A stretch of DNA of 7,254 nucleotides from a virus (Duplodnaviria; Heunggongvirae; Uroviricota; Caudoviricetes): IMG/VR virus record IMGVR_UViG_2778261509_000007. One strand, 5' to 3'. Below, piece after piece: positions 1 to 7,023 of this stretch (its first letter is position 1; the number at the start of each line of letters is the position of its first letter). A program made the translations under genes and the position numbers. Under the pieces are notes generated by a model. The model saw only the letters and a list, made by a program, of their open reading frames with translations, was not told the origin of the DNA and did not search any database.

Positions 1-115
1 AGAAAAAATAACGTTCACCACCGACCTCTGTCAGATCGATTTCCCAGAGCACCACCTGGGCTGACTGAGTGAGGCGTGTCGTCTCATGATGTGTTTCCTG
101 TGGAATATCCTGCAT
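1..115 (-). CDS. L: Minor tail protein L (lambda gpL-like), N-terminal 38 codons only; gene continues past the window start
   Basis: Minus-strand translation from ATG at 115..113 gives [38 protein letters not shown], open to position 1. This closely matches the lambda gpL N-terminus as I recall it (MQDIRQETLNECTRAEQSASVVLWEIDLTEVGGERYFF). The ATG shares one base with the TGA stop of M (TGATG), and the position after M matches lambda gene order. Not in the ORF track because it is truncated. Confidence 0.85.
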   Translation of the reverse strand, partial: MQDIPQETHHETTRLTQSAQVVLWEIDLTEVGGERYFF

Positions 116-453
116 CAAATCACCACTTCGTCAAACTGACACGAAAAATCGGTATAGGTGATATGTTCTGTCGCTGACCACGTTCGACACACCACTCTGA
201 TTTTTCTGTTAATACCCGGCGGGCGCCAAAAAAAAGATTTATAGCCTCCATGCCGAACTAGAAACAGTTCAAATGAATTACGTTCATTCGCCTCAACCCT
301 GAAATCACAGGTAAAAACACGCAGAGCATGATTAAGTCCGTTTGGGCTTCGTTGTTCATAACCATCGCCAAATCTTACAGTTTTTATCGATGGCTTATTT
401 TCTGTTTTCATTCCATCCTCTGGTAACCAGTAAAATTCTTCCGTATTAGCCAC
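115..453 (-). CDS. M: Minor tail protein M (lambda gpM-like), 112 aa
   Basis: ORF-track protein contains [10 protein letters not shown]...[12 protein letters not shown]...[12 protein letters not shown]...FDEVV, colinear with recalled lambda gpM (FRWKVKPGMD...VRFGDGYSQRAP...HGGWKSFLWTPP...FEQVV). GTG start at 453 with GGAGG about 8 nt upstream; overlaps the tape measure stop by 8 nt. Confidence 0.85.
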
Positions 454-3400
454 TTAACATTCCTCCATCACGGCGCATATTTAACAGAGTGCCCTGCACC
501 CGCTGATCAACCATCCCCATAAGTGCTTTTATTGCCTGAGGACCAATCTCTCCATTCTGGCCGTCATTTTGAATAGTGATTTGGTATACAGGTGCATAGG
601 TAATATCTCTGCCTCCATTACCACTTTTACTATTAATAGCTCTGACACCAAGAGAACCATCGGAAGTTCGCGTTAATGGCATAATAGCTTCCGGTCCAGC
701 CTCGCCAAAAACACCAGCTCCTTTTGCAAAAGCAAAAAATTGTGGGGAGTCATAAATACCGTTCGAATATGTACTCAATGACGGAGACTCATACACACCG
801 CCCTTTGCATTCGGAATAAATTTACTAATAGCACTCCCGATAGTTCCTAAAATCCCACCAGAAGAACTGTTATCAATGCTGTCGAAAATCCCAGTAATTG
901 AAGCCTTTAATGCAATTCGACTAAGATCCGAAATCACGGAAGTAGCGAAAGAACGAAAATTTGCCTTGCCTGTCGTGACAAAATCACCTAGCGCATCGGT
1001 CATCCCATCAAACATCTGAGTCGTGGTTGATTTTATCTGCGCACCGATATCCTTAGTGTCATCCAGCCAGTTATTGAATCCCTGGGAGGCACCACTAATC
1101 CAGTCTCCTGCCTGAATATCGAGCTGCTCGTTTTTCTGGCTGACAATTTCTTTTTCTCGTTCCAGAGCATCATTCAGAGCCTGCATTTTCTCCTGAAAAA
1201 CATGATTTGACATTCCACGGGATTTATCTGCATAGTCACGTTCAAGTTGCAGACGCTGATTGTTATATTCACGTTCAATCCGCAGTAATTCCTGCTGGCG
1301 TTGCTGATTTTTATCGCCAAACCCATAACCAGCAATCTGAATGTCATACCCCTGTTGACGATTATCAATCGAAGCCTGCAATGAATCACGCCATGCAGCT
1401 ATTTCGGCGGATTCATTGATTAGCCTGTTATTTTTTTCAATCGCAACATTTTTCTCCATCAACGCAGTTATTTCTTCCCGGTGTAAGAGAAGCGATTTCT
1501 GATCCTGGGTTAATTTCGATGACGGTCGTGACTCCAGGTCGGCAATCTGCTGACGCCACTTAACCAGTTCCTGTTCAGAGGAACTTAATTTAACGGTCAA
1601 TTCAGCTTGTGAACTTAGTAACGCATTCTGTTGATTCAGATGATCAATCATTCGTTGGGCAGCATCATCCGAATAACCTTTCGCCTTTGGTTGCTTTGGT
1701 TCTTTATAACGCTCATTTATTTGAGCGATAAGATTATTATATTCTTCCTTTGAATACTGATTCTTTAGCTTTTCCAGTTTTGCAAGTTCACTAGCTCTCT
1801 GCTGCTCCCGGGTTTGATATTGTTTTGAAAAAGCATCTGCTCTCTGTCTGAGTTCAATTCCTTCCTGTTGTCGCTTGTTGTAATCGTTTATTGATGAATT
1901 TAGTACGTCCTGAGCAATTTTTTCTGCTTGAAGTACGCCCAATTGCTGCTTTAATCGTGCCAGCTTTTTATTTTGAGCTCCGCCATCTCCAACGCCACCT
2001 AACCCGAAAACTCCGGGTCGGGTATTTTTTTCTATTTCATCAATTTGACGGAGAACATCTGAGATTTTTTGATCAAGGGAGGCCTCACGGCCAATATCCA
2101 GCATGGAATCCCATGCCCATTTTGCGGAGTCTGCGACAGCTTTCCATGCAGTCTCAAGATAACCAAGATTTTCTTTAATCTGGCTGGAACGTTGAATCAT
2201 TGAGGATGAATATGCTTCCGTCGCAATACGAGCAGCCTCCTGCTGGTTCCCTTCATCCTGTAGCGCCTTAATCTGGTTATAAGTCGCAAGTGTCAGAAAA
2301 TGGTACTGATCATTAAGTTTTGATATAGCACTGACAGGATCCTTTGCAATTTCATTGAAGTCATTAACCAGTTGTTCGGTTGATATTCCTGTTACTTCGC
2401 TCGTTTTTACTATCGCTGTCGTCACTTGCTCCAGCGAACTGCTCGCTACCTTTCCCGAACGCACAAGCTGTTTTAATACTACCGCCGCAGCGCCAGTTGT
2501 CGAATCAGCCGCATTCCCGGCACGTTGAGCTATATCGGCCAATTGCCCGCTGGTTGTCCCCAACTGATTTCCGGTAAGAATAAGAGATTTATTAAATTCG
2601 TCCTGCTCCTGAGAGCCTTTATAGTAAGCCAGCCCTAAGACGCCAACGGCTGCTGCGGCCAGGGTAAAAGGATTAATTAATCCCAGCACATAAGAACCTA
2701 CACCTTTGATCGCCGGGCCAATCCCACCGAACATATCTTTTAGCTGGCCGCCCTGCTGCATTAACACCATAAATGGCGACTGACCAGTGGACAACCCAAC
2801 AACAATATCCGTCATTTGTGCAGGCAACATGCGCATAGCAAAAGCCGTTTGTTTTGCCGACATTCCGGTTTTGCTTAATTGCGATTGAGTAACCTCAAGC
2901 TCACTCCGCATAGCACGAAGTTTTCCAGAAAGCTCCTCATACATTTCAGGAGAAAGCATCCCCTTAGCTTTTGCTTCATTGAGCTGTTTCTGTTGTTCTA
3001 CCAGACGATTAAAAGCAGTTCCGACAGGATCAAGTTGAGCAATCAGACGTTGCAAAGCAGCAACCTGTTCATCATGCGCTTTTGCTGCTTCTCGCTCTGC
3101 CTGAGCCTCTCCGGTAAGCTCTCGCCGTGTTTCCTGTATTTTTCGGCTATAATTCTCAAACTGAGAACCATTTATTTTCCCGGATGCAAACGCAGCATTA
3201 AGTTCATCCTGCTGTTGTTCAAGATGTCTTAGCGCCGCAGCCAGAGGGTCGATCTTGTCCAGCATTCTTTGAAAGGCCTGAGCCTGCGCTTCCTGCTGGG
3301 CGGCAGCAAGTTTTCCGGCCTTCTCGGCTTCTCTCTGCGCTTGCGCAACCCCGCTCAATTCCGCTGTAGTTTCATTAAGTTTACGGGAAAGAAATTCATA

Positions 3401-3679
3401 TTCTTCTTTATGAATAAGCCCTTTGTCGAAGTATTTCTTTAATTCAGAATAGCGCCGACCGACAGTATCAATTGCGGCACCAACAGGATCAATAGCTGCT
3501 TTTAATTTTGCGAGCGCGTTCTTCTCATCTTCTGTTGCCCTAGTCACTTTCCCTGCGCTATTTGCAGCAGTTGCCCCAGCCTGCGTCATTTTGACCAGGG
3601 AGGAGGTCAAATTATCAGCATTATTTTTCGCTCCAGTGCTATCAATAATTATTGCAAGACGTGAAGTTTGCTCTGTCAT
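446..3679 (-). CDS. H: Tail length tape measure protein (lambda gpH-like), 1077 aa
   Basis: Long ORF with a coiled-coil-rich N-terminus. Central segment [39 protein letters not shown] and C-terminus [16 protein letters not shown]...[10 protein letters not shown] match recalled lambda gpH ([39 protein letters not shown]; NNDGTNGQIGPAALKAV...MRDGGLFSG). ATG at 3679 with GGAG 7 nt upstream. Position between chaperone genes and M is as in lambda. Confidence 0.9.
2885..3523 (-). repeat. Three diverged tandem repeats of about 73-80 codons inside the N-terminal coiled-coil region of the tape measure gene
   Basis: Protein-level repeats anchored on recurring motifs: [24 protein letters not shown] (res 57-80), [24 protein letters not shown] (res 137-160), [25 protein letters not shown] (res 209-233). 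Each is followed by a G-x-(I/L)-xxxx-(F/Y)-xxx-S-(R/G)-K-(L/I)-xxx-(R/T)-x-EL segment and an AQAxREA stretch. The DNA is diverged, so this is not a recent duplication. Boundaries are approximate. Confidence 0.6.
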
Positions 3680-3694
3680 TTAGTTGCTCCGGAC

Positions 3695-3722
3695 AAAAAA
3701 AGCCCCGCTTAGAAAGCGGGGC
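3695..3722 (-). terminator. Rho-independent terminator downstream of the Ail/Lom-like gene, just upstream of the tape measure RBS
   Basis: Perfect 8-bp GC-rich stem (3702..3709 gccccgct pairs with 3715..3722 agcggggc), 5-nt loop, then on the minus strand a run of 7 T (3701..3695). It lies 23 nt after the TGA of the OMP gene. There is no T-run on the plus-strand side, so it is unidirectional. Confidence 0.6.
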
Positions 3723-3745
3723 CAGACAACAGAAGAAAGGAATTA

Positions 3746-4282
3746 TCAGAAACGATAACCAATACCGGTCATCCAGGTACCAACTTTCACATCGCCCAAT
3801 TTGGTGTACTCATAGGATGCGTCAACTACCCAATTTGGTACAGGATTAAACTGAATACCAGCACCATATACAACCGAAGTCTTGCTTAAAGAGTCAGAGT
3901 ATCCCAAAATCGTCGCTTCAGCACGTCCATGCGCTAAACCTATTAAGCCATATGCACTGAAGTAATCATTGAAACGATAGGCTGGACCGGCAGCTAGTGA
4001 ATAGTAATCCAGTTTTTCATTTCCAATTTTAGAGCCTGCAAAATGATAATCGTATTCTTGATGTGTGTACGTAAATGAAGATGCAACGCCCCATTTATCA
4101 TCCAGCTCATATCGATACTTAATATTTACCCCGGAAGGATTCTCATCAAGGCTTTCTCCAGCGACTTTAACATGACTTTGTGCATAACCTAGAGAAATAG
4201 TATTCTGCATCAATTCAGCATTTGCAATGCCAGTTGCAAACAAGGCTGAAGCGATAATGGTAGTCAACACTGCTTTTTTCAT
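3746..4282 (-). CDS. Ail/Lom/PagC/OmpX-family outer membrane beta-barrel protein, 178 aa (moron, candidate virulence / lysogenic-conversion factor)
   Basis: N-terminal Sec signal peptide MKKAVLTTIIASALFATGIANA with an AxA cleavage motif. Motifs SLGYAQSHVK, NIKYRYELDDKWGV, KTSVVYGAGIQFNPVPNWVVDASYEYTKL...VGTWMTGIGYRF are colinear with the Yersinia Ail / Salmonella PagC / lambda Lom family as I recall it. C-terminal aromatic residue is typical of OM beta-barrels. ATG at 4282 with a GGTGA-like SD; TGA stop at 3746. Confidence 0.85.
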   Translation of the reverse strand: MKKAVLTTIIASALFATGIANAELMQNTISLGYAQSHVKVAGESLDENPSGVNIKYRYELDDKWGVASSFTYTHQEYDYHFAGSKIGNEKLDYYSLAAGPAYRFNDYFSAYGLIGLAHGRAEATILGYSDSLSKTSVVYGAGIQFNPVPNWVVDASYEYTKLGDVKVGTWMTGIGYRF

Positions 4283-4342
4283 AAAATCACCGCTATTTCA
4301 CAAATCATTGTTATAACAGCCAGAATTAATCTGGCTGGCAGC

Positions 4343-4372
4343 ATTAAAATATCGACCACATTTTATAGTCAA
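4343..4372 (-). promoter_or_regulatory. Putative sigma70-type promoter for the Ail/Lom-like gene
   Basis: On the minus strand: TTGACT (4372..4367), 18-bp spacer, TTTAAT (4348..4343), about 60 nt upstream of the ATG, within a strongly AT-rich 143-bp intergenic region. Found by eye only, not statistically tested. Confidence 0.25.
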
Positions 4373-4425
4373 CTATCAATTTCACATAAAACTATGTACA
4401 TACAATTAATTGCCAAAGCATAAAA

Positions 4426-5216
4426 TTAATTAATCAATATCCCATCAAAAGTTTTGGATTGAGAAACATACTGGTCATCCAGCGCAAAGATCACTGCTTC
4501 AAATTCATCACTATCTATCAATATTGGGTGTGCTTTTAAATAGTCGTGTATGTCAGATATTGACAAAGGCAGCGGAACCCCGGACATGCCTGCATAACGC
4601 CTAGAACGAGACATTACTGAATACGCATACAATAACTCACGGACAACGGGGTCTATTTCTGGCTCCAGGAGCGGCGGCAACCTGAGTTTTTCTCGCTTCC
4701 ATCTTGCCTTTTCACCCTTTTCTCCCCCGAACTCAGATAACCACCGCTGGGCAGCTATGGCTTTTTTATCGTATCCTGCTTCTGCTGCTCTTTTCCCTGG
4801 GCGATGCTAGCTGCTTCTGCAAGGAGCTGCCAGTACAACTCTGGATTCTGCTTAAGCAGCGCGATCCCTCGTTCTGGCGTATATTCCAGTACAACCTCAA
4901 CACCATCAACCAGTTCACCAACCCCTTTCCAGTCTTTCAGCAGATAACGAGCCGCATTATCAATGAGTAAATCATCAACAGAATCCACCTCGGAAACCTT
5001 TGAAATATCAAACTCCTTCGTTCCGACGTGCAAACTGGCATCCATTTTCTCAATGTGGCGACGGATTAATGCATTACGGGAGCGATACTGATCGTTATCG
5101 CTGCTTGCCACCAACAGTTTTAACCCGTCTACAGGTTTTAAGTCCTTCATTGGCGTAAACCAGCGTTCTCCACTGATGATAATTTTCTGATTAAGAATAA
5201 ACATCCATAACCTCAT
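4426..5216 (-). CDS. Tail assembly chaperone G-T fusion made by a programmed -1 ribosomal frameshift at 4767..4761 (about 262 aa); the 84-aa ORF 4426..4680 is its C-terminal part
   Basis: The frame of ORF 4426..4680 is -1 relative to G (codon first positions are 0 vs 2 mod 3 on the minus strand). I translated the -1 frame from the slippery site (KKAIAAQRWLSEFGGEKGEKARWKREKLRLPPLLEPE...) and found it open with no stop down to the TAA at 4428..4426. The TTG start at 4680 given by the ORF track is an artefact of ORF calling. Confidence 0.55.
4755..5216 (-). CDS. Tail assembly chaperone (gpG-like by position and frameshift architecture), 153 aa; real start may be the ATG at 5204
   Basis: ORF sits immediately after the major tail gene and before the tape-measure region, as G does in lambda. 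It ends with ...DTIKKP* with the slippery heptamer two codons before the stop. No sequence similarity to lambda gpG that I can recognise, so the call is by synteny plus frameshift signal. The ATG at 5204 (M5) has a GAGG SD 6 nt upstream. Confidence 0.6.
   Translation of the reverse strand: MRLWMFILNQKIIISGERWFTPMKDLKPVDGLKLLVASSDNDQYRSRNALIRRHIEKMDASLHVGTKEFDISKVSEVDSVDDLLIDNAARYLLKDWKGVGELVDGVEVVLEYTPERGIALLKQNPELYWQLLAEAASIAQGKEQQKQDTIKKP
4761..4767 (-). other. Slippery heptanucleotide A_AAA_AAG (X_XXY_YYZ) for -1 programmed frameshifting
   Basis: Minus-strand sequence ATA AAA AAG CCA TAG in the G frame; the heptamer A AAA AAG is the same as the well-characterised dnaX slippery site and is positioned like the lambda G-T site, two codons before the G stop. 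Confidence 0.55.
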
Positions 5217-5264: not shown

Positions 5265-6227
5265 TCAACTAATCGCCTCAGCACTGGCTTTTGCGATCAC
5301 GGCAGCCGGGGAGTTTTTTTTTCTGGTTATCGTAGGTGCTTCATCTGCTGCGGTAATGCTCAATTGAACCTGGATAATGTCGGTATTCCCCCCATCAGGC
5401 CATTCACCTGACACCTGAACCTTCGGGAAACTGAAAGTGTATGCCCCCTCTCCATTCGAAAGCGTGAAGCTGAACGGAACTGTTTCTCCAGTCAGTGTTT
5501 TACTCCAGATTTCCCACGCGGATTTAGACCACGAAAGCGTCACCGTACCGGACGGTGTAAAAGTAGTCGGAATATTTGCTCCTGCATAAGGCGAGCCAGT
5601 CCCGATACAACGCTGTGTCTGGAGTTTGTTATCGAACTGAATATCAAAACTGTCGATACAAAAACCGTTACCTCCGGCAACACCATTCAGGCTTACCGCT
5701 GAAACCTCCTTAAACGAATAGCGTAGCTTTCCTGCACTATCCACAGGTTCGCCTTTGATAAAATTCGTATCATCGGCCTTTGATTCCCAGTCCAGCCCGG
5801 CAAAGGTTACGGTCGCTGTAATATCGCCGTCGTTAGGGATCTGCATTTTCCATGAGCCAACCTGCGCTCCTCTGACGACAGAGGCAATTCCGACATCGGA
5901 CGCATAGGTCGCCAGAGAAAATGTTATTCGCTCATTCCCCATTGTCAGAGAATCGCCTGACCATTCCGCGCCGAAACAGGATGCAAGAAAATCATCATGT
6001 TGACCCCAGCGAAATTTGGTACCGACATCACCGCCGACATCCACAGTGCCAGACGTCGCCCCCTGAGCCATCCGGGAGCCGCCGATCTCATTATTTTCGC
6101 CTTTATTCTGGGTGGGTTTTACTCCCCAGCTTGTGCGTTTTAATAAACTCCAGTCACCACTTGCTGGCGTGGTGCCTGCAACTGTCTCCCGGATAAATGC
6201 CGAGATAACCTTTGCACCTGAACTCAC
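5265..6227 (-). CDS. Major tail (tube) protein, 320 aa (assigned by position)
   Basis: ORF lies between the tail-terminator-like gene and the G/G-T chaperone pair, the canonical major tail protein slot. GTG start at 6227 with GGAGG 5 nt upstream; TGA stop at 5265. It does not resemble lambda gpV as I recall it, so the call rests on synteny and size. Confidence 0.55.
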   Translation of the reverse strand: MSSGAKVISAFIRETVAGTTPASGDWSLLKRTSWGVKPTQNKGENNEIGGSRMAQGATSGTVDVGGDVGTKFRWGQHDDFLASCFGAEWSGDSLTMGNERITFSLATYASDVGIASVVRGAQVGSWKMQIPNDGDITATVTFAGLDWESKADDTNFIKGEPVDSAGKLRYSFKEVSAVSLNGVAGGNGFCIDSFDIQFDNKLQTQRCIGTGSPYAGANIPTTFTPSGTVTLSWSKSAWEIWSKTLTGETVPFSFTLSNGEGAYTFSFPKVQVSGEWPDGGNTDIIQVQLSITAADEAPTITRKKNSPAAVIAKASAEAIS

Positions 6228-6253: not shown

Positions 6254-6646
6254 CTAGAGCGCGCGATATGGAATTTGAAGATTAAGCTGGAACCAGCCAT
6301 TCTTTTCGCCAACGGCTATTGAGGAAACAGCCTGGTAACTGAGACGATCGTCATCCTGAAACTCAAACAGTTCCCGCAATTTATCGGCTGTCTCAGTAAT
6401 GAGTTTTGAACCAGAACCTGCGGGGACAAATAACTGAATAATGATTATCCCCGTGCGATAAACAACCGGCCCCGCGCCAATTTCATTAACTCCAGCCTGC
6501 CCGGGAATATTACTTAACCGCGCCCAGATTAACTTACCGGAAGGATCGAACGTTGGCCCGTTCGGATACAATACGTCTTTTCCATCAATAATCGTCTGTG
6601 CCGTCATTCTGGAAATAACCGTATTTCTGATTTCAGTAAACGTCAT
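6254..6646 (-). CDS. Tail terminator-like protein (functional analogue of lambda gpU by position and size), 130 aa
   Basis: 130-aa ORF immediately upstream of the major tail gene (lambda gpU is about 131 aa and occupies the same slot). ATG at 6646 overlaps the stop of the preceding gene (ATGA). Only weak recognisable sequence similarity to lambda U, so the call is by synteny. Confidence 0.45.
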   Translation of the reverse strand: MTFTEIRNTVISRMTAQTIIDGKDVLYPNGPTFDPSGKLIWARLSNIPGQAGVNEIGAGPVVYRTGIIIIQLFVPAGSGSKLITETADKLRELFEFQDDDRLSYQAVSSIAVGEKNGWFQLNLQIPYRAL

Positions 6647-7023
6647 TTGTAAGCCTGTAAAACACCATGAAAAGCGTTGGCATACACGCCAGTTGGCGCT
6701 TGTTGTGAATGACCGTTTTCAAGAGCCTCTGCATAAGGAAGGTTATTCTGGATATAAATAACCCCGTAATTTGCAGCTTTCGAAATAACCCCGATCCCAC
6801 GCTGAACAGCAATCGTACCGTTCGGATCCACGTTATCAGATATACCAAAATCGGGATGCTGTAACGACACCAGGTTGTTATTTCTGAAACGTCCGGTATC
6901 AACCGGAGCAGCAATATCAATAGCAGTAAGAATCTGAATAGCGATGTAGCGAATCTTCAGCCCTACATCTTCCTCAATCATCCCGGCAAATATTGACGGT
7001 TCTATATCCCATGCCTTTGCCAT
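6643..7023 (-). CDS. HK97 gp10-family tail completion / head-tail joining protein, 126 aa
   Basis: Contains the motif PVDTGRFRNNN that I associate with the HK97 gp10 family (D-T-G-R-L/F-R signature). ATG at 7023 preceded by AAGGAG; stop overlaps the next gene start (ATGA at 6646..6643). Sits in the lambda gpZ-equivalent slot. Confidence 0.55.
   Translation of the reverse strand: MAKAWDIEPSIFAGMIEEDVGLKIRYIAIQILTAIDIAAPVDTGRFRNNNLVSLQHPDFGISDNVDPNGTIAVQRGIGVISKAANYGVIYIQNNLPYAEALENGHSQQAPTGVYANAFHGVLQAYK

What the first reader, a model, noticed from the sequence alone, without database searches (positions are those of the whole stretch)
3695..4425. Ail/Lom/PagC-family outer-membrane protein moron inserted between the G-T chaperone genes and the tape measure gene
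In lambda-type tail operons G-T is normally followed directly by H. Here a 178-aa signal-peptide-bearing beta-barrel OMP of the Ail/Lom/PagC/OmpX family (4282..3746) sits in that junction. The neighbouring phage genes are tightly packed or overlapping (TAAATG, ATGA, 8-nt overlap, TGATG), whereas this gene has a 143-bp AT-rich upstream gap and a 66-bp downstream gap carrying an intrinsic terminator. That is the classic moron architecture (own promoter plus terminator). Members of this family mediate serum resistance, adhesion/invasion and intramacrophage survival, so it is a candidate lysogenic-conversion factor expressed from the repressed prophage. Ail-like genes in prophage tail regions have been reported before (from memory), so the class is not novel, but this copy and its exact insertion point deserve checking.
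Basis: partly seen in the sequence, partly recalled or inferred. Interest (0 to 1): 0.65.

Follow-up and report, generated by a model that had tools for sequence, protein, structure and literature searches.

The report
Ail-type outer-membrane protein moron in prophage tail
An E. coli Rac-type prophage carries a self-contained extra gene for a Yersinia-Ail-like outer-membrane protein between its tail chaperone and tape measure genes; this is a well-supported but fairly ordinary example of a phage "moron" that may change the host cell surface.

Summary
ORF 4282..3746 (minus strand, 178 aa) has a Sec signal peptide, a confident eight-stranded beta-barrel model and a C-terminal Phe. It passes Pfam Ail_Lom. 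Its closest solved relative is Yersinia pestis Ail (56% identity, E 5e-54), well ahead of OmpX and lambda Lom. A 143-nt, 30%-GC gap lies upstream. A strong intrinsic terminator (3723..3694) lies in the 66-nt downstream gap.

Comparative data support the moron reading. The window is a Rac-type E. coli prophage. Ten sequenced phages share flanks at about 96% identity, yet carry an unrelated 183-bp cassette in place of window 3683..4467. Only about 20 of 1,069 E. coli genomes with this junction carry the gene. A second allele (59% identity, dS 1.45) sits in the same slot of an almost identical tail module (flank dS 0.03-0.14), so the cargo is exchanged independently of the backbone.

The first moron ever defined, HK97 gene 15, occupies the same chaperone|tape-measure slot. 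The promoter (conserved TTGACT-N18-TTTAAT) is inferred and expression in lysogens is untested. The phenotype (serum resistance or adhesion) is unproven, and the surface loops differ from Y. pestis Ail. Verdict: a new member of a known kind, of modest interest.

The parts
4755..5216 (-). Tail assembly chaperone G (YdaY-like); upstream neighbour of the slot
   Evidence: phrog_313 'tail assembly chaperone' E 2.9e-46; annotated ydaY in K-12 Rac relatives
4761..4767 (-). Slippery heptamer A_AAA_AAG for the -1 frameshift that makes G-T
   Evidence: Sequence ...ATA AAA AAG CCA TAG; the 263-aa fusion matches phrog_313 positions 13-248 of 258, E 8.6e-51
4426..4680 (-). T ORF (-1 frame extension of G). 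Its last 13 codons plus stop (4467..4426) belong to the exchanged cassette
   Evidence: phrog_1189 E 4.9e-31; weak Pfam Phage_TAC_18 hit; homology to OMP-less phages ends at 4468
3683..4467 (.). Cassette specific to OMP-bearing prophages (785 bp), replaced by an unrelated 183-bp cassette in SPF_0923, vB_EcoS phages and K-12 Rac
   Evidence: Breakpoints from local alignments; only about 20 nt (3705..3687) are shared between the long and short cassettes, not above shuffles; 38.5% GC against 45.7% for the rest of the window
4343..4372 (-). Inferred sigma-70 promoter: -35 TTGACT (4372..4367), 18-nt spacer, -10 TTTAAT (4348..4343)
   Evidence: ATTGATAGTTGACT is invariant and the TATT(A)TTAAT box is conserved in three alleles whose coding regions differ by up to 41% at protein level. 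Not called by the strict scanner, which requires A at -10 position 2. Function not tested.
4317..4337 (-). 8-bp hairpin CAGCCAGA-UUAAU-UCUGGCUG at the predicted 5' end of the mRNA
   Evidence: Centroid structure in the RNA fold; conserved in SA31-1 but not in the S1-INA allele; role is speculative (mRNA 5'-end stabiliser)
4287..4291 (-). Shine-Dalgarno-like GGTGA, 4 nt before the ATG
   Evidence: Read from the sequence; GGT(G/A)ATTTTATG conserved in all alleles
3746..4282 (-). Ail-type outer-membrane beta-barrel protein, 178-aa precursor (signal peptide residues 1-22 = 4282..4217; mature protein 156 aa)
   Evidence: Pfam Ail_Lom 95.8 bits (cut-off 23) and OMP_b-brl 97.7 bits; Y. pestis Ail 3QRA E 4.8e-54; AF2 pLDDT 87 with 8 strands; Foldseek 3QRC TM 0.95, rmsd 1.2 A; MKK + hydrophobic core + ANA|E and C-terminal GYRF; dN/dS 0.05 in the barrel, 0.46 in the loop tips
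3694..3723 (-). Intrinsic terminator: GGCCCCGCUU-UCU-AAGCGGGGCU followed by U7
   Evidence: nearly identical in all three OMP alleles
446..3679 (-). Tape measure protein gene (H analogue); downstream neighbour of the slot
   Evidence: Pfam TMP_2 2.3e-81 and Tape_meas_lam_C 1.9e-25; TIGR01541

Best explanation
The feature is a moron cassette in the tail operon of a Rac-type lambdoid prophage of E. coli. It carries an Ail-clade member of the Ail/Lom/OmpX family of eight-stranded outer-membrane beta-barrels. Proposed mechanism, with the status of each step:
(1) In the lysogen the gene is transcribed from its own sigma-70 promoter, TTGACT-N18-TTTAAT at 4372..4343. This is inferred from conservation only.
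(2) Transcription stops at the strong intrinsic terminator 3723..3694, so the tape measure and distal tail genes stay silent. The terminator is shown; its use is inferred.
(3) The 178-aa precursor is exported by Sec and cleaved after Ala22 (ANA|E). It is inserted by BAM through its C-terminal ...GYRF signal as a 156-aa barrel with four extracellular loops. The sequence features and fold are shown; the pathway is inferred from the family.
(4) On the surface it modifies host interaction, most likely by reducing complement killing and/or mediating adhesion, as Ail-group proteins do when expressed in E. coli. This is inferred; the phenotype is untested and may differ because the loops differ.
(5) During lytic growth the prophage's Q-like antiterminator lets late transcription read through the terminator, so tail assembly is not disturbed. 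The Q homolog is shown; read-through is inferred from lambdoid biology.
The cassette is exchanged by recombination independently of the phage backbone.
For: Family and fold.
Presence/absence polymorphism: ten phage records with about 96% identical flanks lack the gene, and the best phage homolog is only 46% identical. About 20 of 1,069 E. coli genomes that hold the junction carry it.
Breakpoints and unrelated alternative cargo.
Independent history of the cargo: OMP dS is 1.45 against 0.03-0.14 for the tube, tail terminator, Z and TMP genes between two OMP-bearing prophages. The divergent block is about 4600..3726.
Purifying selection on the barrel, relaxed in the loops.
Terminator.
Conserved -35/-10/SD across alleles.
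Lower GC (40.8% CDS, 30% upstream, 45.7% rest).
Relatives are mostly chromosomal genes or morons at other junctions, so the gene is mobile cargo.
Precedent for the slot: HK97 gene 15 lies between the tail chaperone and tape measure genes and is expressed from the prophage.
The Q-like antiterminator in the same prophage matches phrog_753 at E 9.5e-77.
Ail-group proteins confer serum resistance when expressed in E. coli, to varying degrees.
Against: No expression data exist. The strict promoter scan finds nothing on the gene strand. The GC contrast is small, and gene M is as AT-rich as the OMP. The terminator lies in the part that is conserved between OMP alleles, and the OMP-less cassette also ends in a terminator, so a terminator may be a property of the slot rather than of this cargo. 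The functional inference is weak for three reasons: the loop 2 tip is only 13% identical to Y. pestis Ail; the four loops are net -3 where Y. pestis Ail is +3; and within the Ail group some members give little serum resistance, while Lom and OmpX give none. The prophage already has a canonical lom gene.
Confidence: 0.75

Rival explanations
1. The outer-membrane protein serves the phage rather than host virulence. It would act in superinfection exclusion, in masking or altering a receptor, or in stopping released virions from adsorbing to lysed-cell debris. This would parallel the exclusion function of HK97 gp15, which is encoded at the same slot.
For: The same slot in HK97 carries a superinfection-exclusion moron. 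Ail/Lom-type genes sit next to tail or lysis genes in prophages of many genera, including insect symbionts and nematode symbionts where mammalian serum is irrelevant. The surface loops evolve fast (dN/dS 0.46 against 0.05) and whole alleles are swapped, as expected for a protein in an arms race, which could be with phages.
Against: No Ail/Lom/OmpX family member met in the papers read here has a phage-exclusion function. gp15 is an unrelated small inner-membrane protein. Fast loop evolution is equally expected under immune selection.
Confidence: 0.12
2. The gene has no promoter of its own. It is simply co-transcribed with the late tail operon and is made only during lytic growth, so it is a passenger gene and not a lysogen-expressed moron.
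For: The consensus scan finds no sigma-70 promoter on the gene strand. The gene has the same orientation as the late operon. The prophage has a Q-like antiterminator that would carry late transcription through it.
Against: A 143-nt, 30%-GC spacer holds TTGACT and a -10-like box that stay conserved across alleles whose coding sequences are 41% different. A strong terminator directly after the gene makes little sense for a purely late gene. The archetypal moron in this slot is prophage-expressed.
Confidence: 0.1
3. The protein acts mainly as a structural or homeostatic outer-membrane component, in an OmpX-like or Ail-like role in membrane integrity and lipid asymmetry. It would have no specific adhesion or complement-evasion activity.
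For: The NCBIfam best match is the OmpX model, although below its cut-off. [quoted passage not shown] The basic loop character of Y. pestis Ail is not conserved.
Against: E. coli already has ompX, and this prophage already has lom. The rarity and allelic turnover of the gene fit a niche-specific surface function better than housekeeping.
Confidence: 0.12

Closest known systems
Yersinia pestis Ail (attachment invasion locus protein; PDB 3QRA/3QRC)
   Same: 56% identity over the whole mature domain (153 aligned residues). Same eight-stranded barrel: the model superposes at TM 0.95 and rmsd 1.2 A. Same length class and the same C-terminal ...GTWM.G.GYRF strand.
   Different: Phage-borne in E. coli rather than chromosomal in Yersinia. 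The extracellular loop 2 tip is only 13% identical. The loops are net acidic (-3) where Ail's are basic (+3). Ligand binding and serum resistance were not tested.
Bacteriophage lambda Lom and the canonical lom genes of lambdoid prophages
   Same: Same protein family (Pfam Ail_Lom; phrog_108 E 1.7e-46). Same concept: an outer-membrane protein encoded inside the late/tail region of a temperate siphophage.
   Different: Only 31% identical to the Lom of the same prophage, and 64 bits to lambda Lom against 186 bits to Ail. Lom lies between J and stf; this gene lies between T and the tape measure gene. It is 178 aa against about 199-206 aa.
HK97 gene 15 moron
   Same: Same slot, between the tail assembly chaperone genes and the tape measure gene. 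Same logic: present in some phages and absent from close relatives, with its own transcription signals.
   Different: The cargo is unrelated. gp15 is a small inner-membrane YebO-like superinfection-exclusion protein; here the cargo is an outer-membrane beta-barrel.
E. coli OmpX, and Salmonella Rck/PagC
   Same: Same superfamily and fold: OmpX 1QJ9 gives TM 0.92 at 42% identity; the NCBIfam OmpX model gives 136.9 bits and the Rck model 92.7 bits.
   Different: Both NCBIfam equivalog cut-offs are missed (176 and 258 bits), so it is not an ortholog of either.
Ail-type genes at other junctions of prophage tail and lysis modules (Proteus, Xenorhabdus, Lelliottia, Arsenophonus)
   Same: Homologs at 44-60% identity, carried as extra genes in siphophage-like tail modules.
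   Different: They sit after the tape measure gene (TMP|M, TMP+2 genes), between L and K, or near the lysozyme gene. None of the 80 sampled loci has the T|TMP position.

Membership tests
Ail/Lom/OmpX family (Pfam PF06316, eight-stranded OM beta-barrel) | Profile match above the curated cut-off | tested here: met
   PF06316 95.8 bits against cut-off 23; PF13505 97.7 bits against 28.7; phrog_108 E 1.7e-46
Ail/Lom/OmpX family (Pfam PF06316, eight-stranded OM beta-barrel) | N-terminal Sec signal peptide with a signal peptidase I site | tested here: met
   MKK, then a 16-residue core with mean hydropathy 2.0, then ANA|ELMQ. The alignment to mature Ail starts at residue 26, and the AF2 model shows a low-confidence N-terminal helix at residues 3-15. 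Checked by inspection; no dedicated predictor was available.
Ail/Lom/OmpX family (Pfam PF06316, eight-stranded OM beta-barrel) | Eight antiparallel beta-strands forming a small barrel | tested here: met
   The AF2 model (pLDDT 87.4) has strands 27-40, 50-59, 64-81, 84-103, 108-125, 128-145, 151-162 and 165-177. Top Foldseek hits are Ail and OmpX.
Ail/Lom/OmpX family (Pfam PF06316, eight-stranded OM beta-barrel) | C-terminal aromatic residue (beta-signal for BAM) | tested here: met
   Ends in ...GIGYRF; F178 is invariant in the 30-sequence alignment
Ail subgroup (Yersinia Ail type) | Closer to Ail than to OmpX, Lom, Rck or PagC | tested here: met
   phmmer against the PDB: Ail 186 bits, OmpX 107, Lom 64. 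Nearest named homologs are the Ail proteins of Xenorhabdus, Photorhabdus, Proteus and Yersinia at 52-61%. No full phylogeny was made.
Ail subgroup (Yersinia Ail type) | Conservation of the extracellular-loop character implicated in ligand binding | tested here: inconclusive
   Loop 2 tip is 13% identical; loops are net -3 against +3 in Y. pestis Ail. Which residues are essential is known to me only from memory, so this is not a formal test.
Ail subgroup (Yersinia Ail type) | Confers complement resistance and/or adhesion and invasion | not testable with these tools
   Needs serum-killing and cell-association assays. The phenotype varies within the group.
OmpX ortholog (NCBIfam NF006917) | Score at or above the equivalog cut-off | tested here: not met
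   136.9 bits against cut-off 176
Rck / resistance to complement killing (NCBIfam NF011777) | Score at or above the equivalog cut-off | tested here: not met
   92.7 bits against cut-off 258
Moron (as defined for HK97/HK022; PMC3594210) | Extra DNA present in one phage and absent from close relatives | tested here: met
   Absent from 10 phages with about 96% identical flanks, and from about 98% of E. coli genomes with this junction. Strictly it replaces a 183-bp cassette.
Moron (as defined for HK97/HK022; PMC3594210) | Base composition different from the surrounding genes | tested here: met
   Cassette 38.5% GC, CDS 40.8% (GC3 0.32), rest of window 45.7%. The contrast is modest, since gene M is 41.6%.
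Moron (as defined for HK97/HK022; PMC3594210) | Own transcription terminator | tested here: met
   10-bp stem plus U7, -18.3 kcal/mol, z -4.5. Caveat: the alternative short cassette also ends in a terminator.
Moron (as defined for HK97/HK022; PMC3594210) | Own promoter | tested here: inconclusive
   The strict consensus scan is negative on the gene strand. TTGACT-N18-TTTAAT is conserved across three alleles.
Moron (as defined for HK97/HK022; PMC3594210) | Expressed from the repressed prophage | not testable with these tools
   Needs a lysogen transcriptome or a reporter fusion

The most novel reading that the evidence does not exclude
The T|tape-measure junction of Rac-type tails would be a dedicated cassette-exchange site. 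Unrelated cargos (a 183-bp unit of unknown function, or ail genes) and very different ail alleles (59% identity) are swapped into an otherwise almost identical phage backbone, within a shared frame of promoter/signal-peptide region and terminator. The turnover would be driven by selection on the exposed loops, either from host immunity in livestock-associated E. coli or from phages that use the protein as a receptor. The phage would then be acting as a vehicle for antigenic or allelic variation of a surface protein.
Probability: 0.3. Interest if true: 0.5.

Novelty: new member of a known kind. Interest (0 to 1): 0.3.

Why it matters
If the gene is expressed in lysogens and active, it would be a phage-borne Ail-type surface factor in E. 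coli. The complete genomes that carry it come mostly from livestock (pig ETEC strains, a feral pig, cattle, buffalo, yak), with several from humans. It could add complement resistance or adhesion to those strains and spread by lysogeny. It also gives a clean natural experiment, because near-identical prophages differ only in the cargo at one slot. That makes isogenic comparison easy, and it shows that the archetypal HK97 gene-15 moron slot is reused for very different cargo. The class of element, the protein family and the slot are all already known, so the conceptual gain is small.

Tried and rejected
- Rfam search of 3500..4900 at E <= 1 gave only sub-threshold hits, all caused by the terminator hairpin. 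No known RNA family is in the upstream gap.
- PhoP-box search (KGTTTA-N5-KGTTTA, up to 3 mismatches) gave 21 hits against 20.5 expected, with none in 4283..4425. There is no evidence for PhoP control as in pagC or Photorhabdus ail1.
- Could the 183-bp short cassette be a deletion remnant of the OMP cassette? Rejected. The best local alignment is 20 nt (T-run plus TMP ribosome-binding site), score 23 against a shuffle mean of 19.4 and a maximum of 29.
- Is the short cassette's 28-aa ORF a known phage protein? No PHROG hit, and nothing is annotated there in NC_000913.3.
- The first global MAFFT alignment of the long and short junctions was misleading and was replaced by local alignments.
- Two script runs failed because locus files were not yet written.
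- Literature searches for this gene or for an Ail gene at this slot found nothing specific.
- OmpX and Rck orthology is rejected on NCBIfam cut-offs.

Full report
**What is in the window.** All long ORFs lie on the minus strand and form a lambdoid siphophage tail module. In order they are:
- a tail-completion/Z-like gene (6643..7023)
- a tail terminator (6254..6646)
- the tail tube (5265..6227)
- chaperone G (4755..5216)
- the T ORF (4426..4680)
- the 178-aa ORF of the finding (3746..4282)
- the tape measure gene (446..3679)
- gene M (115..453)

The assignments come from Pfam, NCBIfam and PHROGs. G ends in ATA AAA AAG CCA TAG. The A_AAA_AAG heptamer (4767..4761) leads by a -1 shift into the T frame. 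The resulting 263-aa fusion matches the full-length chaperone profile phrog_313 over positions 13-248 of 258.

**Checking the observation.** The coordinates, the 143-nt upstream gap (30% GC) and the 66-nt downstream gap are as stated. The downstream gap holds a 10-bp, G+C-rich hairpin followed by seven T at 3723..3694. It folds at -18.3 kcal/mol (z = -4.5). The strict sigma-70 scan finds no promoter on the gene strand.

**What the protein is.**
- It passes Pfam Ail_Lom (95.8 bits, cut-off 23) and OMP_b-brl.
- Against solved structures, the best match by far is Yersinia pestis Ail (3QRA, E 4.8e-54, 186 bits). E. coli OmpX scores 107 bits and lambda Lom 64 bits.
- Identity to mature Y. pestis Ail is 56% over 153 residues.
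- The NCBIfam equivalog models for OmpX and Rck both score below their cut-offs.
- An AlphaFold model built on 30 homologs is confident (pLDDT 87). It shows a signal-peptide helix and eight long strands. It superposes on Ail 3QRC at TM 0.95 and rmsd 1.2 A.
- The N-terminus (MKK, hydrophobic core, ANA|E) and the C-terminal ...GYRF are typical of Sec-exported, BAM-inserted barrels.

Membership of the Ail/Lom/OmpX family is therefore met on every feature I could test, and within the family it groups with Ail. The extracellular loops differ. The loop 2 tip is 13% identical, and the four loops are net -3 where Y. pestis Ail is +3.

**Where the window comes from.** The stretch 3600..4800, which includes the gene and both junctions, is 100% identical to the chromosomes of seven complete E. 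coli genomes: five pig isolates (four named ETEC, plus PEC422), feral-pig strain RM10740 and one human isolate. In RM10740 it belongs to a complete-looking prophage at the Rac site next to ompN/uspF. That prophage also carries trkG and a canonical 199-aa lom between J and stf. The canonical Lom is only 31% identical to the protein studied here. A Q-like antiterminator lies upstream of the lysis and late genes.

**Is it a moron?** Ten sequenced phages (Salmonella phage SPF_0923 and nine Escherichia vB_EcoS phages) match the window at about 96% identity but cover only 89% of it. No phage record encodes a protein more than 46% identical to this one.

Local alignment puts the breakpoints at 4467/4468 and 3682/3683. 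The 785 bp between them are replaced in those phages by 183 bp. That shorter block is identical in K-12 Rac. The two cassettes share only about 20 nt, the T-run and the tape-measure ribosome-binding site, so neither derives from the other. The short cassette also ends in a hairpin plus T-run.

The left junction lies inside T, so the cassette brings its own last 13 codons of T.

Of 5,426 complete E. coli genomes, 1,069 match the junction. Only 19 cover at least 80% of the query, and one more covers 75% with an Ail/Lom gene. A sample spread over the whole ranking shows otherwise only the 183-bp state, or matches on the G/T side alone.

**The cargo has its own history.** Strain S1-INA-02-A carries a 185-aa Ail/Lom gene in the same slot, 59% identical to the window protein. 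Between these two prophages the tube, tail terminator, Z and tape measure genes differ by dS 0.03-0.14 (95-99% amino-acid identity), but the OMP genes differ by dS 1.45. The divergent block runs from about 4600, inside T, to about 3726, just before the terminator. These are two distinct alleles placed in one slot of nearly the same backbone.

Within the block, three parts remain more alike than the middle of the gene: the -35/-10 region, the 5' UTR with the signal peptide, and the last strands. The barrel is under strong purifying selection (dN/dS 0.05). The loop tips are much less constrained (0.46). The gene is therefore functional and surface-exposed.

**Promoter.** Across three alleles the 14-mer ATTGATAGTTGACT is invariant. 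A TATT(A)TTAAT box follows 17-18 nt after TTGACT, and the GGT(G/A)ATTTTATG start region is conserved. In the window this reads TTGACT (4372..4367), an 18-nt spacer, then TTTAAT (4348..4343). The scanner rejects it only because it demands A at the second -10 position. An 8-bp hairpin (4337..4317) would sit at the 5' end of such a transcript, but it is not conserved in the third allele. No Rfam family and no PhoP box are present. The promoter remains an inference.

**Origin and relatives.** The exact protein is on 392 public contigs. Its 90% cluster has 39 sequences; every named member is from Escherichia and carries only a generic name. The next relatives in identity and context are:

| Relative | Identity to the window protein | Context |
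|---|---|---|
| P0002 (unnamed, metagenome) | 71% | short non-phage contig |
| P0004 (Salmonella enterica), P0005 | 66-67% | chromosomal island beside fimbrial and EAL genes |
| P0009 (unnamed) | about 61% | core chromosomal site next to thrS-infC |
| Ail proteins of Xenorhabdus, Photorhabdus, Proteus, Yersinia | 52-61% | see the 80 loci below |

Among 80 loci from species-representative genomes, 19 are phage-linked. The gene then sits after the tape measure gene (Lelliottia, Arsenophonus, Phlomobacter), two genes further on (Proteus), between L and K (Xenorhabdus), or near the lysozyme gene (Xenorhabdus). None is at T|tape-measure.

**Comparison with what is known.** The slot is the one where the term moron was first applied. 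[quoted passage not shown] Lambda Lom is the classic phage-borne member of the protein family, at a different junction.

Function cannot be read off from family membership. When expressed in E. coli, Y. pestis Ail gave high serum resistance, P. luminescens Ail2 gave intermediate resistance, and Ail1 and P. asymbiotica Ail gave weak resistance. That paper also cites earlier work that Lom and OmpX do not confer it (PMC4198210).

**Verdict.** This is an Ail-clade outer-membrane barrel carried as an exchangeable cassette, with its own terminator and a plausible promoter, in the archetypal moron slot of a Rac-type E. coli prophage. Shown here: family, fold, export signals, terminator, presence/absence polymorphism, breakpoints, selection pattern and allelic replacement. 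Inferred: promoter use, expression in lysogens, read-through during lytic growth, and the phenotype. It is a new member of a known kind. Interest is modest (0.3). The most interesting open point is the cassette exchange at this slot.

Noticed in passing
L001 5183..5365 (identical in K-12 Rac, L005 about 3083..3265); takes the place of window 3683..4467: The common state of this slot, in K-12 Rac, ten sequenced phages and roughly 1,000 E. coli genomes, is an unannotated 183-bp cassette. It has its own hairpin plus T-run terminator and a possible 28-aa ORF (MVSLIKSMMLLEKSIAWPRNRYIYYYVA). It has no PHROG hit and no annotation in NC_000913.3. It may be a small moron or an sRNA unit.
   Followed up: partly
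L004 3148..3705 (E. coli S1-INA-02-A) against window 3746..4282: A second ail allele of 185 aa, 59% identical (dS 1.45), occupies the same slot. The flanking tail genes differ by only dS 0.03-0.14, and the divergent block is window about 4600..3726. Its closest relatives are P0037 (98%), P0034 (85%) and a Salmonella protein, P0036 (67%).
   Followed up: yes
window 4761..4767 and 4426..5216: The G-T programmed -1 frameshift (A_AAA_AAG) gives a 263-aa fusion that matches phrog_313 end to end. RefSeq annotation of RM10740 calls only a shortened G ('hypothetical protein') and no T or G-T product.
   Followed up: yes
window 4426..4467: The cassette junction lies inside T, so each cassette type gives T a different C-terminus: ...DDQY-VSQSKTFDGILIN here, ...DDQY-FQEQCV in OMP-less phages, and ...DDNYFSQFAKNN in S1-INA. 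The extreme C-terminus of T seems to tolerate replacement.
   Followed up: partly
L003 10408..11007 and 33459..34916 (RM10740 prophage): The same prophage also carries a canonical Lom (199 aa, between J and stf, 31% identical to the window protein) and the trkG potassium transporter. It therefore carries at least three accessory genes and encodes two Ail/Lom-family proteins.
   Followed up: partly
L013, L017 (Proteus); L014, L015, L019, L022 (Xenorhabdus); L030, L045, L056; L047, L051, L057-L062: Ail-clade genes recur as extra genes at several different junctions of prophage tail and lysis modules in other Enterobacterales: TMP|M, TMP+2 genes, L|K, and near the lysozyme gene. The cargo type is widespread but the insertion point is not fixed.
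   Followed up: partly
window 4317..4337: An 8-bp hairpin (CAGCCAGA/UCUGGCUG) sits exactly where the inferred transcript would start. It may stabilise the mRNA 5' end. It is conserved in the 94% allele but not in the 59% allele.
   Followed up: partly
L003 23425..23808 (adjoins window 7024 onward): RefSeq annotates the head-tail gene just upstream of the Z-like gene in RM10740 as a 'glutamate 5-kinase' pseudogene with an internal stop. The name looks like a misannotation of a phage structural gene, and the stop may mean this prophage is defective.
   Followed up: no
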